Virus record (IMG/VR): IMGVR_UViG_3300014893_000026
Span: 1-9,649 of that record
Origin: a virus
Taxonomy: Duplodnaviria > Heunggongvirae > Uroviricota > Caudoviricetes
DNA: 9,649 nt
Strand: one strand, 5' to 3'
Shown: positions 1 to 3,100 of the stretch, one piece after another
How positions within the stretch are numbered: position 1 is the first letter of the stretch
How the letters are laid out: each line of letters starts with the position of its first letter
Program-made: the position numbers and the translations under genes
The notes under the pieces: generated by a model
Databases searched by the model: none
Told to the model about the DNA's origin: nothing
What the model saw: only the letters and a program-made list of their open reading frames with translations

Positions 1-178
1 CACGCTGACGCTGCTGCATGTCAGCGATGGTGGCGATCGCCTGCTTCAGCTCACTGACTTTTTTATCACGCTGTTCTTTGTAGGCGATGGCGTTATCACG
101 GTAATGATTCAGCCCCAGACTAAGCGCACCACAGGCCACCAGCAGGGCAATGATGACCACGCACAGTACGCGGTTCAT
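1..178 (-). CDS. Rz-like i-spanin, N-terminal portion (gene continues past window start)
   Basis: Reverse complement of 1-178 translates from ATG (176-178) as MNRVLCVVIIALLVACGALSLGLNHYRDNAIAYKEQRDKKVSELKQAIATIADMQQRQR: an N-terminal membrane anchor followed by the NHYRDNAI-YK-QRDK motif recalled from lambda Rz. Sits downstream of the endolysin. Absent from the ORF track because no stop codon falls inside the window. Confidence 0.8.
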   Translation of the reverse strand, partial: MNRVLCVVIIALLVACGALSLGLNHYRDNAIAYKEQRDKKVSELKQAIATIADMQQRQR

Positions 179-179
179 T

Positions 180-278
180 TCACCACCAGCGTATCTGACC
201 GATGAAATAACCGGAGGCCATAATCACAAACACCAGCCAGATAAGAATGAACTTCCAGGTGGATAATTTTTCAGCCAT
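180..278 (-). CDS. Hypothetical 32-aa single-TM peptide, stop 1 nt before the Rz ATG
   Basis: Minus-strand ATG at 276-278, translation MAEKLSTWKFILIWLVFVIMASGYFIGQIRWW, stop TGA at 180-182. GGGAG lies about 8 nt upstream of the ATG. Not in the ORF track (below length cutoff). Could also be a remnant N-terminus of an alternative spanin. Confidence 0.35.
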   Translation of the reverse strand: MAEKLSTWKFILIWLVFVIMASGYFIGQIRWW

Positions 279-353
279 CACTCGAATCTCCCGAATCAGT
301 TTGCTAAAATCAAACACACTTTCTCCTTTGACTTTTCCGGAGTCAGGAAACAC

Positions 354-388
354 AAAACCCCGCTTGGTGCCAACAAACGGGGTTTTTA
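354..388. terminator. Terminator-like GC-rich hairpin flanked by A-run and T-run (bidirectional), between endolysin and Rz
   Basis: AAAACCCCG (354-362) and CGGGGTTTT (378-386) are reverse complements around a 15-nt loop. On the minus strand the hairpin is followed by TTTTGTGTTT. Confidence 0.5.
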
Positions 389-476
389 CTTTTATTCACT
401 TACGTTTCGCCAGTTCGCAGGATTTCGTGTTATCCGCCCGCGTGGCCATACCTTATTTTTCAGCAAAATATTCTGC

Positions 477-1010
477 TTATCTGTCGATTCCCCAGCACGC
501 CAGCGCGCTCTCCTGGTCACGACGGGATACCTGACCGTAGCAGTTGTTTGAACGAATACGGCAGTCTCTGCCACCGTCCTTAATCCACCAGCGAATCGCC
601 TCACACGCTCCCCTGCGATCACCTGCATTAATTCGTTTATAAAACGTCGACGGGAAACACTTACCGGGACCAATGTTGTACGGACAGAATGACGCGATCC
701 CCGCTTTCTGGGGTTCACTCAATGGCACTCTGATGTTTTTCTCCACCCATGCCAGCGCCTCATCACGCTCAATGGCGTTAACCCGGTCGCATTTTTCCTT
801 CGACAACTTCATGCCCGGAACGACAGGTTTGCCATCCACCAGGATGGCACCGCGGCAGATGGTCCAGATACCCGCACCATCACGGTATGCCGTGGTGTGG
901 TTACCTTCCTTTTCATCCAGAAACTGGTCGAGAATGTCAGGCGCAGGCGCACCAGCGGCAATCAGCGCCAGAACGGCAGCCGACAGGCCGTATCTGATTT
1001 TTGCGTTCAT
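477..1010 (-). CDS. rrrQ: Phage lysozyme (T4-lysozyme-like / GH24 endolysin) with N-terminal SAR-like hydrophobic segment
   Basis: 177-aa ORF with ATG at 1008-1010. N-terminal YGLSAAVLALIAAGA segment, then E-x8-D-x5-T catalytic spacing (EGNHTTAYRDGAGIWT) typical of T4-type lysozymes. Position in lysis cassette after the holin. Symbol recalled from K-12 Qin RrrQ (same length); unverified. Confidence 0.88.
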   Translation of the reverse strand: MNAKIRYGLSAAVLALIAAGAPAPDILDQFLDEKEGNHTTAYRDGAGIWTICRGAILVDGKPVVPGMKLSKEKCDRVNAIERDEALAWVEKNIRVPLSEPQKAGIASFCPYNIGPGKCFPSTFYKRINAGDRRGACEAIRWWIKDGGRDCRIRSNNCYGQVSRRDQESALACWGIDR

Positions 1011-1115: not shown

Positions 1116-1388
1116 ATGGACAATAACACCATTTCTCTACAGGAGTTGCTCGACAGCATTTCCAGGCTTCGGGAAGACGTGAATACCCTTACCGTCGCCT
1201 TCTCATATCTGGCATTCTCAATTCCAAGGGAACAGATGCAATCAACGCTGGCATCAATCCAGTTTGAATCATGCAATCCCAAATGGTCTCAGGAACAACA
1301 AGACTCTTTCAGGCGGCTTGCTGTATTACTGGATGAAAAATATGCTGGTAAAATTACCATTTCGGCGGACTCTTCAGAGAACCCGTAA
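1116..1388 (+). CDS. Hypothetical 90-aa protein, antisense to the lysis operon
   Basis: ATG at 1116 preceded by GAGGA with 6-nt spacing (tgaGGAttatttATG). Fills most of an otherwise empty ~340-bp gap between the DUF1327 gene and the endolysin. 3' end overlaps the DUF1327 gene 3' end by 35 bp (convergent). No family recognised. Confidence 0.4.
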   Translation: MDNNTISLQELLDSISRLREDVNTLTVAFSYLAFSIPREQMQSTLASIQFESCNPKWSQEQQDSFRRLAVLLDEKYAGKITISADSSENP

Positions 1389-2395: not shown

Positions 2396-2670
2396 GTGGT
2401 ACTTTTTGTGGGAGTCATCCACTTACGCACTTTGTTTTGCTATGCCAGCAGTTAGCTTCTGCTGTAAAACTATTCATGCAGCAAACCTGCACTTCACCAC
2501 AATGGTTAGCATACTTTTCCTGATTAAGTTATTGCCAAATATGCTGGCCATTGTTTCATGTATTGGACCTCCTTACTATTTATTAAAGAGATCCAATATT
2601 CACCACTCTGTCTGTATCTCCACTCAGGCATCAGCCTTCTTCGTTATCGTATACAGACAAACTATGAATT

Positions 2671-2886
2671 TTAATCAGTAATTATGACATTTGCTGCTGC
2701 AGGACCTTTAGCACCACTCTCTACAGAGAAGGTAACCTTTTGACCTTCAAATAAGGTTCGATAATTATCATTCTGAATCGCAGAAAAATGCACAAACACA
2801 TCTTTACTACCATCAACAGGAGAAATAAAGCCAAAACCTTTATCAGCGTTAAACCATTTTACTAAACCAGTCATTTTATTTGACAT
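2671..2886 (-). CDS. cspB: Cold-shock protein, CspA family
   Basis: 71 aa, [71 protein letters not shown], with RNP1-like KGFGFI and RNP2-like VFVHF motifs. Near-identical to my recollection of E. coli CspB. AAGGA 7 nt upstream of the ATG. Confidence 0.93.
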
Positions 2887-2941
2887 TCTACATTCCTTAA
2901 CTTGAGCCTTTCGGCATAAATGGCTTGTATAACAGAAACGA

Positions 2942-3100
2942 CTTCGTACTTAATTGGAGAGACTCAAAGAAGGAATAAGTGAATAACACCTGAAATGAGA
3001 ACTGCTTTAGTAAACTACTTCGTACTTAATTGGAGAGACTCAAAGAAGGAATAAGTGAATAACACCTGAAATGAGAACTGCTTTAGTAAACTACTTCGTA
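2942..3100. repeat. Perfect 76-bp tandem duplication (two full copies plus 7 bp of a third) in the cspB-cspF divergent intergenic region
   Basis: 2942-3017 and 3018-3093 are identical base for base (cttcgtacttaattggagagactcaaagaaggaataagtgaataacacctgaaatgagaactgctttagtaaacta); 3094-3100 restarts the unit (cttcgta) before diverging. Confidence 0.9.

What the first reader, a model, noticed from the sequence alone, without database searches (positions are those of the whole stretch)
180..278. Small single-TM ORF placed 1 nt ahead of Rz, inside the lysis cassette
Between the endolysin stop (477) and the Rz ATG (176-178) there is a 300-bp insert-like segment rather than the usual tight R-Rz junction. 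It contains a 32-aa hydrophobic ORF (MAEKLSTWKFILIWLVFVIMASGYFIGQIRWW) whose TGA stop lies 1 nt before the Rz ATG, with a GGGAG about 8 nt upstream. It could be an unannotated small membrane protein, or the orphaned N-terminal anchor of a different spanin left by mosaic recombination.
Basis: partly seen in the sequence, partly recalled or inferred. Interest (0 to 1): 0.5.

Follow-up and report, generated by a model that had tools for sequence, protein, structure and literature searches.

The report
Antisense-guarded small membrane gene before Rz
The small ORF ahead of Rz is a real, widely conserved phage gene for a 45-residue inner-membrane protein, and it travels between phage late operons as a compact cassette with a predicted antisense RNA that covers its ribosome-binding site, much like a type I toxin-antitoxin pair.

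Summary
It has 45 codons and starts at GTG 317-315 behind an AGGAG site, not at ATG 278. Some RefSeq and phage records annotate it as a hypothetical protein (WP_000459345; phrog_6632). It is under purifying selection, keeps a fixed length across Enterobacterales, and has relatives in Pseudomonas and Azoarcus. It is not a spanin remnant.

It belongs to a roughly 215-bp mobile cassette. The parts are a bidirectional terminator hairpin, a small hairpin that covers the Shine-Dalgarno site, a GTG or TTG start (never ATG in 96 non-redundant copies), and the ORF. Synonymous sites in codons 3-18 are frozen. They encode, on the opposite strand, an extended -10 promoter (TGcTAAAAT, 96/96 copies) with a -35 element 17 nt away. 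This promoter points at the hairpin and predicts an antisense RNA of about 80 nt over the start region. No conserved sense promoter exists.

The cassette sits at the endolysin/i-spanin junction of eight different lysis cassette combinations. It also occurs at baseplate V/W and tail K/I junctions of lambdoid late operons.

Best reading: a type I toxin-antitoxin-like module, without its own toxin promoter, that is expressed only from antiterminated late transcripts. The protein function is unproven; I infer that it perturbs the membrane and assists lysis.

The parts
180..317 (-). The 45-codon gene. It starts at GTG 317-315 and stops at TGA 182-180. The product is MFDFSKLIREIRVMAEKLSTWKFILIWLVFVIMASGYFIGQIRWW: an N-terminal amphipathic helix (residues 4-17), a break, then a transmembrane helix (20-43) with a GxxxG motif (G36-G40) and an RWW end. 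Predicted topology is N-in, C-out.
   Evidence: ORF and sequence. PGAP annotation of the same ORF. phrog_6632 match, E 1e-29, full length. dN/dS 0.08-0.5. AlphaFold2 pLDDT 83 with two helices. Hydropathy and hydrophobic moment.
276..292 (-). GGGAG (292-288), 9 nt, then ATG (278-276, Met14). This is a possible secondary initiation site that would give the 32-aa form.
   Evidence: Among 18 divergent representatives, Met14 is ATG in 18/18, the R9 codon is (C/A)GG in 16/16 and the E10 codon is GAG in 18/18. Met is replaced by L, I or F in a few distant family members. There is no direct evidence of initiation.
322..350 (-). Leader stem-loop that occludes the Shine-Dalgarno site. UUUCCU (350-345) pairs with AGGAGA (327-322). 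Inner stem: GACU (344-341) with AGUC (333-330).
   Evidence: Minimum-free-energy fold. The same architecture appears in homologues with different inner stems (CCUUG/CAAGG, CCUG/CAGG, CAUG/CAUG, CGUUA/UAACG). Pair counts are 82% paired versus 72% in shuffles (0/500 as high), 16 double-change cells versus 6.9, and 43-57% in slid controls.
343..396 (.). Bidirectional intrinsic-terminator hairpin. AAAACCCCG (354-362 on the plus strand) pairs with CGGGGTTTT (378-386). T-rich tracts follow on both strands: 383-396 on the plus strand and 357-343 on the minus strand.
   Evidence: Terminator scan. Folds. A strong hairpin is present in 96/96 non-redundant cassettes. The stem covaries, for example GCTCCG/CGGAGC in Edwardsiella. 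A-rich and T-rich flanks are equally conserved.
282..310 (+). Predicted antisense promoter inside codons 3-12 of the ORF. The -35 is TCGAAT (282-287), followed by a 17-nt spacer and an extended -10, TGcTAAAAT (302-310).
   Evidence: Coordinates read. It is the top-scoring antisense site at the same position in 19 of 21 divergent homologues. TG(C/A)+TAAAAT/TAATAT/TAAGAT occurs at this position in 96/96 non-redundant cassettes. It explains the frozen synonymous sites D3 GAT, F4 TTT, S5 AGC and R12 CGA. Only 2 such motifs occur in the whole window.
316..394 (+). Predicted cis-antisense small RNA of about 76-80 nt. Its start is inferred about 7 nt downstream of the -10. It is complementary to the start codon, the Shine-Dalgarno site (anti-SD CUCC at 323-326) and the leader, and it ends at the terminator hairpin and U tract.
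   Evidence: It folds into two hairpins at -23.2 kcal/mol, z = -3.3. Both ends are inferred from the promoter and terminator positions. No transcript data are available. Rfam gives no family, only a sub-threshold rimP-leader match at 321-396 on the plus strand.
387..476 (-). R-distal spacer that is not part of the mobile cassette. It is shared with ant-type Stx phages such as BP-4795, where ant plus a different small transmembrane ORF follows it instead.
   Evidence: Partial matches covering query positions 1-99 in about 280 phage records. Alignment.
477..1010 (-). Endolysin R, a phage lysozyme with an N-terminal hydrophobic, SAR-like segment. This is the upstream neighbour.
   Evidence: ORF. 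PF00959, E 1.7e-23.
1..178 (-). The 5' part of the i-spanin gene Rz. The ATG is at 178-176, 1 nt after the small ORF's stop, and the gene runs off the window start.
   Evidence: Sequence. PGAP 'lysis protein' in homologous loci. The same TGAnATG junction occurs with Rz and with LysB-type spanins.

Best explanation
Window 180-396 is one copy of a compact mobile cassette. It resembles a type I toxin-antitoxin module that lacks its own toxin promoter.

What the sequence comparison shows:
1. A 45-residue bitopic inner-membrane protein gene is under purifying selection.
2. Its initiation signals look deliberately weak. The start is always GTG or TTG, and the Shine-Dalgarno site pairs into a conserved stem-loop.
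3. An extended -10 promoter lies on the opposite strand inside codons 3-12. It is conserved at synonymous sites and points towards a bidirectional terminator about 45 nt away.

What I infer:
1. That promoter makes an antisense RNA of about 80 nt that pairs with the start codon, Shine-Dalgarno site and leader. It blocks translation and probably creates an RNase III substrate.
2. The cassette has no sense promoter, and its own hairpin terminates incoming transcription. The protein is therefore made only when Q-antiterminated late transcripts from the lambdoid late promoter read through and outnumber the antisense RNA. That means late in lytic growth, not in the lysogen.
3. The protein inserts N-in, C-out. 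It self-associates or binds another helix through its GxxxG transmembrane helix and perturbs the membrane. This assists or times lysis, as the Hok-type toxin HokW does for the Stx2 phage Sp5.
4. In this window the 1-nt stop-start junction also couples Rz translation to it.

My probabilities: real 45-aa membrane protein gene about 0.95; antisense RNA unit real about 0.7; late-only, tightly limited expression about 0.6; lysis-assisting membrane toxin about 0.35.
For: Coding:
- dN/dS is 0.08-0.5 with no indels.
- The family spans Enterobacterales, Pseudomonas and Azoarcus. It has 73 clusters at 50% identity, all stand-alone proteins of 31-95 aa except one 723-aa protein with only a short partial match.
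- AlphaFold2 predicts two helices. Hydropathy and amphipathicity fit that model.

Throttled translation:
- Starts are GTG in 82, TTG in 14 and ATG in 0 of 96 non-redundant cassettes.
- The stem that covers the Shine-Dalgarno site shows compensatory changes.

Antisense unit:
- Synonymous divergence (pS) is 0.36 in codons 2-20 versus 0.81 in codons 22-43.
- S5 is AGC in 18/18, R12 is CGA in 18/18, D3 is GAT in 18/18 and F4 is TTT in 15/15.
- These bases spell TGcTAAAAT, with a -35 at 17 nt, on the other strand in 96/96 cassettes. This holds even in P. aeruginosa, where GAT and TTT are (from general knowledge of its GC-rich codon usage) non-preferred codons, and in Azoarcus, which has TGATAAAAT despite amino-acid changes.
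- RNAalifold finds no mRNA structure that would otherwise explain the constraint.
- The hairpin has conserved U-tract potential in both directions.
- The predicted RNA folds well.

No sense promoter:
- Searches find none that is conserved.

Late-operon residence:
- A census of 253 loci gives about 170 at endolysin/i-spanin junctions (8 endolysin x spanin combinations), 56 at baseplate V/W and 18 at tail K/L.
- The carrier phages SEN34 and YMC11/02/R656 have a lambdoid layout. SEN34 has an annotated antitermination protein; in YMC11/02/R656 a Q-like function is only guessed for the unannotated gene next to ninG.
- The window itself carries Q (PF03589) upstream.

Precedent:
- The type I system hokW-sokW on the lambdoid phage Sp5 promotes lysis and phage release (PMC8621323).
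Against: - No transcript, translation or phenotype data exist for this locus in anything I could search. The antisense RNA, its start site and its effect are predictions.
- The -35 element is weak (3 of 6 matches).
- The outer pairs of the Shine-Dalgarno stem use G-U in 7 sequences. That structure therefore serves the mRNA, not the antisense RNA.
- A canonical type I system has its own toxin promoter, and this one does not.
- Toxicity is assumed from the layers of repression and from analogy.
- The cassette also sits in baseplate and tail operons, so a lysis-specific partner is unlikely and 'lysis-assisting' is only guilt by association.
- Part of the 5' conservation (R9-E10, codons 13-20) is not explained by the core promoter. 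I can only suggest an UP element and/or an internal start.
- Antitermination in the non-E. coli carriers is inferred from genome layout, not shown.
Confidence: 0.5

Rival explanations
1. It is an ordinary late-operon accessory gene (a moron in the broad sense) for a harmless small membrane protein. The antisense 'promoter' is not used. The frozen synonymous sites reflect selection on the mRNA's own initiation region (A/U-rich and unstructured, perhaps with two starts). The hairpin is simply an internal terminator or an RNA-stabilising element of the late operon.
For: The cassette is extra DNA between genes that are adjacent in relatives. RNAalifold predicts the 5' coding region to be unstructured, which fits selection for an open initiation region. 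The -35 is poor. Other unrelated small transmembrane ORFs pile up at the same junction without any obvious antisense unit.
Against: Selection for an open, A/U-rich region would not fix AGC for Ser5 or CGA for Arg12. It would not reproduce TGnTAAAAT at a 17-nt spacing from TCGNAN in 96/96 copies, including GC-rich Pseudomonas. The A-rich tract 5' of the hairpin has no role in sense termination, yet it is as conserved as the T tract. The universal GTG/TTG start and the occluded Shine-Dalgarno site argue that expression is being suppressed, not optimised.
Confidence: 0.2
2. The main product is the small RNA. It would be a prophage-expressed regulatory RNA acting in trans on host or phage targets, or cutting the late mRNA between R and Rz through RNase III. 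The ORF would be secondary.
For: The promoter, the terminator and the sequence between them are the most conserved nucleotides of the cassette. Lambdoid prophages are known sources of regulatory RNAs, for example IsrK in Gifsy-1 (PMC4825925).
Against: The 3' two-thirds of the ORF lies outside the predicted RNA, yet it keeps frame, length and a low dN/dS with saturated synonymous sites. The protein is therefore under selection in its own right. No Rfam family matches.
Confidence: 0.12
3. It is a prophage-benefit gene, for superinfection exclusion or abortive infection. It would be made in the lysogen or triggered by an incoming phage, and it would block DNA entry or kill the cell at the inner membrane, as HK97 gp15, P22 SieA or Hok-type defence systems do.
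For: It is a small inner-membrane protein carried by temperate phages, inserted in late or tail operons like HK97 gp15 (my own knowledge of Cumby et al. 2012). It is present in about 17% of complete E. coli genomes, sometimes in several copies. An antiterminator from a superinfecting lambdoid phage could in principle switch it on.
Against: No promoter can express it in a lysogen. A terminator and a predicted antisense RNA stand in front of it. PADLOC defence models give no match. The predicted topology leaves only 3-4 periplasmic residues, so there is little surface to meet an incoming phage.
Confidence: 0.1
4. It is the orphaned N-terminal membrane anchor of another spanin, or another decaying remnant left by mosaic recombination.
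For: It lies directly in front of an i-spanin gene and has one transmembrane helix.
Against: It has no similarity to Rz, LysB-type or other i-spanins. Length is fixed and selection is purifying across genera. It has its own conserved start, Shine-Dalgarno site and leader. It also occurs at baseplate and tail junctions.
Confidence: 0.01

Closest known systems
symE/SymR of E. coli, a type I toxin-antitoxin pair with a cis-antisense RNA (from my own knowledge of Kawano, Aravind and Storz 2007; not checked here)
   Same: The antisense RNA promoter lies just inside the 5' end of the ORF. The RNA of about 77 nt covers the start codon and ribosome-binding site and ends at a terminator upstream of the gene.
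   Different: SymE is a soluble 113-aa AbrB-fold protein with its own LexA-controlled promoter. Here the protein is a 45-aa membrane peptide, and no sense promoter belongs to the unit.
hokW-sokW of the Stx2 prophage Sp5 (PMC8621323)
   Same: It is a type I system carried by a lambdoid Stx phage. The small hydrophobic toxin goes to the inner membrane after induction, and the locus advances lysis and doubles phage release.
   Different: There is no sequence relationship. hok has its own promoter, a mok leader ORF and a fold-back mRNA, and it is not embedded between lysis genes. HokW appears before the late proteins, whereas this ORF can only be transcribed with them.
Phage morons in the sense of Juhala and Hendrix, for example HK97 gp15 (from my own knowledge)
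   Same: It is extra DNA between two genes that are adjacent in related phages. It encodes a small membrane protein and moves among late operons.
   Different: Classical morons carry their own promoter and a downstream terminator and are expressed from the prophage. Here the terminator is upstream, no sense promoter exists, and the stop codon abuts the next gene.
The isrK-orf45-anrP locus of Gifsy-1 (PMC4825925)
   Same: A terminator hairpin is followed, on read-through, by a roughly 45-codon ORF. That ORF has a sequestered ribosome-binding site, two in-frame starts and a stop that touches the next gene's start, giving translational coupling. The ant genes of ant-type Stx phages such as BP-4795 occupy the same R-Rz junction (Gifsy-1's own gene order was not checked).
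   Different: The amino-acid sequence of Gifsy-1 orf45 is not conserved, so it acts only as a coupling device, and the regulator is a sense-strand RNA acting in trans. Here the protein is conserved and the predicted RNA is antisense. Rfam finds no isrK here or in BP-4795.
Lambda S dual-start motif with the sdi RNA structure, holin/antiholin (from my own knowledge)
   Same: It is a late membrane protein gene in the lysis cassette. An upstream stem-loop at the first start and a second in-frame start could set the ratio of two products.
   Different: S107 and S105 differ by two residues and are the holin itself. Here the two putative products would differ by 13 residues, a canonical S21-type holin is already present, and use of the second start is unproven.

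Membership tests
phrog_6632 / WP_000459345 small phage protein family | Full-length match to the family profile | tested here: met
   E 1.2e-29, residues 1-45 on profile positions 1-45 of 45. The Salmonella homologue matches at 3.9e-23.
phrog_6632 / WP_000459345 small phage protein family | Conserved motif xDFSK(L/I)IRE(I/L/V)RxM...L..(W)(K/R)F...W, one C-terminal transmembrane helix, about 45 aa | tested here: met
   Alignments A1 and A3. 18 divergent 45-codon representatives. AlphaFold2 model and hydropathy.
Type I toxin-antitoxin system | Small (<60 aa) hydrophobic membrane peptide as the toxin candidate | tested here: met
   45 aa. Kyte-Doolittle mean over 19 residues is 2.13. One predicted transmembrane helix.
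Type I toxin-antitoxin system | A gene for an antisense RNA that overlaps the toxin's translation initiation region | tested here: met
   This is met at the level of sequence signals only. Extended -10 TGnTAAAAT in 96/96 cassettes, a -35 at 17 nt, and a bidirectional terminator 45 nt downstream.
Type I toxin-antitoxin system | The RNA is made and represses toxin synthesis; the toxin is toxic when over-produced | not testable with these tools
   No transcriptome, ribosome-profiling or expression data for any genome carrying the cassette could be reached. The literature searches found nothing.
Type I toxin-antitoxin system | The toxin mRNA has its own promoter | tested here: not met
   No sense promoter was found between hairpin and start. 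No positionally conserved one was found within 220 nt upstream in 21 divergent homologues.
Phage moron (Juhala/Hendrix definition) | Extra DNA between genes that are adjacent in related phages | tested here: met
   R and Rz overlap in K-12 Qin and in SEN34. Alignment A4.
Phage moron (Juhala/Hendrix definition) | Own promoter upstream and own terminator downstream (autonomous expression from the prophage) | tested here: not met
   The terminator is upstream. The stop is 1 nt from the Rz ATG here, and 1 nt from the next ORF's start in 30 of 96 cassettes. No sense promoter was found.
i-spanin (Rz/LysB) or a remnant of one | Sequence similarity to an i-spanin; periplasmic coiled-coil domain | tested here: not met
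   No BLASTP alignment to Rz. hhalign probability against a LysB-type spanin is 0.5%. No PF03245 or PF10828 hit. Only 3-4 residues follow the transmembrane helix.
i-spanin (Rz/LysB) or a remnant of one | Remnant status: frame not conserved, stops and frameshifts tolerated | tested here: not met
   80/80 copies intact, with synonymous polymorphism only. dN/dS is below 0.5 and there are no indels. Frameshifted variants exist but are rare.
Holin / antiholin | Transmembrane domain(s) followed by a charged hydrophilic C-terminal tail; specific to one holin type | tested here: not met
   The C terminus is RWW and the charge is N-terminal. It is found with S21-type (PF04971), Phage_holin_8 plus holin_3_7, and other holins.
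Holin / antiholin | Dual-start motif giving two products | tested here: inconclusive
   GTG1 and ATG14 are both conserved, with an SD-like GGGAG fixed at synonymous sites. Met14 is replaced in some distant members. No initiation data exist.
Gifsy-1 isrK-orf45-anrP type locus | IsrK RNA family upstream; orf45 conserved as nucleotides but not as protein | tested here: not met
   No Rfam isrK match in the window or in BP-4795. The protein is conserved here, unlike orf45 (PMC4825925).

The most novel reading that the evidence does not exclude
This would be the founding example of an unrecognised class: type I toxin-antitoxin-like cassettes without a toxin promoter that live inside the antiterminated late operons of lambdoid phages. 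Gammaproteobacteria and at least one betaproteobacterium carry them, including about one in six complete E. coli genomes. The constitutive antisense RNA would set a threshold that late transcription must exceed. A membrane-active peptide would then appear only at the end of the latent period and act as a portable lysis timer or accelerator that does not depend on the holin type. The peptide might come in two forms, 45 aa and 32 aa, from two starts, as an effector and its modulator. The small-transmembrane-ORF arrays seen at the endolysin/spanin junction would then be a general, overlooked layer of lysis control.
Probability: 0.22. Interest if true: 0.75.

Novelty: new variant of a known kind. 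Interest (0 to 1): 0.6.

Why it matters
Lambdoid lysis cassettes are among the best-studied gene sets in biology. Even so, this gene sits between R and Rz in H-19B, in many Stx1, Stx2a and Stx2c phages, and in prophages of about 17% of complete E. coli genomes. It has no assigned function and is mostly unannotated.

If the antisense RNA is real, the cassette is a new arrangement of the type I toxin-antitoxin logic. The toxin would be transcribed only by antiterminated late polymerase and guarded by four layers of repression: a terminator, an antisense RNA, an occluded Shine-Dalgarno site and a non-ATG start.

That gives a testable handle on several questions:
- How temperate phages keep late membrane-active proteins silent in lysogens.
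- How lysis timing and Shiga-toxin or phage release might be tuned.
- How very small genes move between operons.

It is also a practical annotation point. Gene callers miss the gene, or call it from the wrong start.

Tried and rejected
- Pfam, NCBIfam, PADLOC and PDB sequence searches gave nothing for the protein.
- The scan of 1.84 billion representative proteins found only stand-alone small homologues and no informative fusion.
- AlphaFold2 gave the expected two helices. I did not run a fold search, because a 45-residue helix pair cannot give a meaningful match.
- Rfam at gathering and at permissive thresholds found no family for either strand of 150-520. The only hits were sub-threshold leader and terminator look-alikes.
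- I considered homology of the R-distal spacer or of BP-4795 to Gifsy-1 IsrK. Rfam does not support it.
- The promoter-like site reported by the scan tool on the plus strand at 195-224 (CTGACC-18-CATAAT) is not conserved in homologues, so I dropped it.
- I looked for a sense promoter in the hairpin loop or leader, or upstream of the hairpin. None is conserved.
- RNAalifold on the leader plus 84 nt of coding sequence found no conserved mRNA structure in codons 1-20.
- The spanin-remnant idea was tested directly and rejected.
- A holin-specific antiholin and a spanin-specific partner are both unlikely. The same gene is combined with several holin, endolysin and spanin families and also sits in tail operons.
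- Literature searches for the accessions, for small membrane proteins in lysis cassettes and for type I systems in lambdoid late operons found no description of this gene.
- The search for related loci refuses single proteins shorter than 48 aa, so I used subgroup alignments instead.
Full report
**What is at the coordinates.** The minus strand of the window start is a lambdoid lysis cassette.
- An S21-type holin lies at 1918-1703 (PF04971).
- A DUF1327/YdfR gene follows it.
- Endolysin R lies at 1010-477 (PF00959).
- The 5' end of Rz starts at ATG 178-176.
- Q (PF03589) lies upstream at 4650-3898.

Between R and Rz there are 298 bp, whereas K-12 Qin and phage SEN34 have R and Rz overlapping.

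**The gene is 45 codons, not 32.** The frame stays open upstream to a GTG at 317-315, which sits 5 nt after AGGAG (327-323).
- PGAP calls exactly this 138-nt ORF in some E. coli genomes as a hypothetical protein (WP_000459345 and WP_000459344).
- CP-1639, SEN34 and Rac-SA53 carry equivalent calls.
- PHROGs has a 45-position family for it, phrog_6632, of unknown function (E 1e-29).
- Pfam, NCBIfam, PADLOC and PDB have nothing.

Homologues at 60-70% protein identity occur in Salmonella phages FSL SP-016, SPN3UB and SEN34, and in Enterobacter, Citrobacter, Edwardsiella, Yersinia, Pantoea, Brenneria and Sodalis. More distant homologues at 45-50% occur in Pseudomonas and an Azoarcus MAG. Among the enterobacterial homologues, nearly all intact copies keep the same 45 codons.

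Pairwise dN/dS is 0.08-0.5 with synonymous sites near saturation. Eighty near-identical IMG/VR copies are all intact and differ only synonymously.

AlphaFold2 (pLDDT 83) gives an amphipathic helix at 4-17, a break, and a transmembrane helix at 20-43. Hydropathy, hydrophobic moment and charge distribution fit an N-in, C-out bitopic protein with a GxxxG motif and an RWW end.

A profile search of 1.84 billion representatives finds 73 clusters. All are stand-alone proteins of 31-95 aa, apart from one 723-aa protein with only a short partial match, so there is no informative fusion.

**It is not a spanin remnant.** There is no similarity to Rz or LysB-type spanins. The conservation pattern is the opposite of decay.

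**It travels as a cassette.** In every homologue the ORF is preceded by the same architecture.
- A GC-rich hairpin flanked by A and T tracts (window 354-386). It is found in 96/96 non-redundant copies, and its stem covaries.
- A U-rich stretch.
- A small stem-loop whose 3' arm and outer pairs cover the Shine-Dalgarno site.
- A GTG or TTG start. ATG never occurs in 96 non-redundant copies.

The stem over the Shine-Dalgarno site keeps its shape while the inner stem changes sequence: CCUUG/CAAGG, CCUG/CAGG, CAUG/CAUG, CGUUA/UAACG, and GACU/AGUC in the window. On a 17-sequence alignment 82% of cells pair, versus 72% in shuffles (0/500 as high) and 43-57% in slid controls. Sixteen cells show changes on both sides, versus 6.9 expected.

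A census of 253 loci gives the following contexts.

| Junction | Loci | Notes |
|---|---|---|
| Endolysin / i-spanin | about 170 | eight combinations, listed below |
| Baseplate V / W | 56 | two unrelated baseplate families |
| Tail K / L region | 18 | |

The eight endolysin x spanin combinations are:
- SAR-type lysozyme with either of two Rz types;
- M15 peptidase with Rz or with LysB/LysC;
- GH19 with a short spanin pair;
- GH108 with another spanin pair;
- a 138-aa endolysin with Rz or with LysB.

Nearly identical protein variants occur in lysis and baseplate contexts, so the unit moves on its own.

The carriers with non-lysis insertions are themselves lambdoid, with one long late operon. 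SEN34 has an annotated antitermination protein next to ninG. In Pseudomonas phage YMC11/02/R656 a Q-like role for the unannotated gene next to ninG is only my guess. About 899 of 5426 complete E. coli genomes carry at least 80% of the cassette.

**The unexpected part is a conserved antisense promoter.** Among 18 divergent 45-codon representatives, synonymous sites vary freely in codons 22-43 but are almost frozen in codons 1-20.
- pS is 0.36 in the 5' part versus 0.81 in the 3' part.
- D3 is GAT in 18/18, F4 is TTT in 15/15, S5 is AGC in 18/18, R12 is CGA in 18/18, E10 is GAG in 18/18 and L18 is TTA in 15/18.

RNAalifold finds no mRNA structure there. Read on the other strand, these bases are TCG(C/A)A(A/T), then 17 nt, then TGcTAAAAT. 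That is an extended -10 promoter.

It is the best-scoring antisense site at the same position in 19 of 21 divergent homologues. Its TG(C/A) and TA(A/T)(A/G)AT are present in 96 of 96 non-redundant cassettes. This includes P. aeruginosa prophages, where (from general knowledge of its GC-rich codon usage) GAT and TTT are non-preferred codons. It also includes Azoarcus, which has TGATAAAAT although the encoded residues differ.

In the window the -35 is at 282-287 and the extended -10 at 302-310 on the plus strand. Only one other such motif occurs in 19 kb of sequence counting both strands.

Transcription from this promoter would start at about 316-318, on the complement of the GTG. It would run through the complement of the Shine-Dalgarno site and leader, and end at the hairpin. 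The A tract on the ORF strand, equally conserved, supplies the U tract for this direction.

The predicted RNA of 76-80 nt folds into two hairpins (z = -3.3). I infer that the conserved GAA AAA TTA of codons 16-18 (TAATTTTTC on the other strand) could be an UP element.

No conserved sense promoter exists in or upstream of the cassette.

**Interpretation.** The cassette combines four elements:
- a small hydrophobic ORF;
- a cis-antisense RNA over its initiation region;
- an occluded Shine-Dalgarno site;
- a weak start codon.

This is the logic of a type I toxin-antitoxin locus. From my own knowledge, it is closest in layout to symE/SymR. It has one difference: the toxin has no promoter, and the unit's own bidirectional terminator blocks incoming transcription.

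In a lambdoid late operon, only Q-modified polymerase would read through. I therefore infer three things. Expression is restricted to lytic growth. The antisense RNA mops up leaky transcripts in the lysogen and sets a threshold during induction. The protein acts at the inner membrane late in infection.

Three observations suggest, but do not prove, a general role in membrane perturbation and lysis assistance rather than a partnership with one holin, endolysin or spanin:
- The cassette is found most often, and repeatedly by independent events, at the endolysin/spanin junction.
- Other unrelated one-helix ORFs accumulate at that junction. Phage 783R2 has four in tandem.
- The Hok-type system hokW-sokW of Sp5 advances lysis and doubles phage yield (PMC8621323).

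In this window the TGAaATG junction, also seen with LysB-type spanins, would couple Rz translation to the small ORF.

**Open points.**
The R9-E10 codons are always (C/A)GG GAG, although they lie in the promoter spacer. A second 32-aa product is therefore possible, but Met14 is replaced in some distant members.
- The Gifsy-1 isrK-orf45-anrP locus (PMC4825925) is a conceptual neighbour: terminator read-through, a sequestered ribosome-binding site, a roughly 45-codon ORF coupled to the next gene, and an ant-type (anrP) gene like the ant that fills the R-Rz junction in BP-4795-type phages. It is not homologous, its ORF is not conserved as protein, and Rfam finds no isrK here.
- No paper or database entry that I could search assigns a function to this gene or describes the antisense unit.

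**Verdict.** The spanin-remnant idea is rejected.

The feature is a real, widespread and uncharacterised gene cassette. Its regulatory anatomy, worked out here from comparative sequence alone, is a new variant of the type I toxin-antitoxin and moron themes. The antisense RNA and the protein's role remain predictions that simple experiments can test.

Noticed in passing
window 2604-3035 (-), CDS 2671-2886 (-): A full-length match to the Rfam cspA thermoregulator (142.8 bits, E 1e-37). It lies in front of and across a 71-aa cold-shock-domain gene, between Q and the holin, like cspB and cspI in K-12 Qin. It is a moron with its own RNA thermometer inside the late region.
   Followed up: partly
window 1116-1388 (+): A 90-aa ORF on the strand opposite the lysis genes. 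It overlaps the 3' end of the DUF1327/YdfR gene. PGAP annotates it as a hypothetical protein (WP_000369850) in homologous prophages. It has no Pfam hit.
   Followed up: no
window 387-476 (-); L007 2505-2600; L004 2503-2590: The 90 nt just after the endolysin stop are conserved independently of the cassette. About 280 Stx-phage records share them and then continue into ant plus a different small transmembrane ORF. The 17-codon ORF in this stretch is not conserved. In the Salmonella version a second terminator-like hairpin lies here (L004 2537-2558). The function is unknown, and Rfam finds no isrK.
   Followed up: partly
L009 1817-2380 (phage vB_EcoS-783R2); L007 3344-3490; L010 2161-2489; L120 2680-2901: The R-Rz junction, and the baseplate V/W junction in Dryocola, collects arrays of other unrelated one-helix ORFs (phrog_4906 and phrog_1115, both of unknown function). 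Phage 783R2 has four in tandem. The last one ends in ...AIRWW, then a stop, 1 nt, and the Rz ATG, just like this gene.
   Followed up: partly
L004 2386-2502 (Salmonella phage FSL SP-016; also SPN3UB): Another 38-aa hydrophobic ORF (MTMSKRDVSALCFLMAAAVAISGNDGWGWLIFAGIIIL) overlaps the endolysin stop, upstream of the cassette. It gives a weak hit to phrog_14810.
   Followed up: no
family variants (for example L118, L119, L009): Some members keep the N-terminal half (..KQLPNWKF) but carry a different transmembrane half ending in ...IPFLWVVSQLIxAIKG. Dryocola has the reverse hybrid. The ORF therefore recombines internally near the PNWKF hinge, at the 3' edge of the region that holds the antisense promoter.
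   Followed up: no
L019 1-130 and 1977-3117 (E. coli AP025754.1); L021 1260-1985: Genes for an LT-II-type enterotoxin (PF01375 A subunit plus PF06453 LT-IIB) and a pertussis-S1-like ADP-ribosyltransferase sit inside or beside a lysis cassette that also carries this small gene. The arrangement is analogous to stx upstream of the lysis genes.
   Followed up: no
window 195-224 (+): The scan tool reports a second promoter-like site on the antisense strand, inside the transmembrane-coding part (CTGACC-18-CATAAT). SEN34 has one nearby (L008 2122-2095), but the position is not conserved in other homologues. It is probably a by-product of A/T-rich hydrophobic codons.
   Followed up: yes
window 321-396 (+): A sub-threshold Rfam match to the gammaproteobacterial rimP leader (24.7 bits against a gathering score of 47) coincides with the predicted antisense RNA. 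It is driven by the terminator hairpin and the U-rich flank. I treat it as chance.
   Followed up: yes
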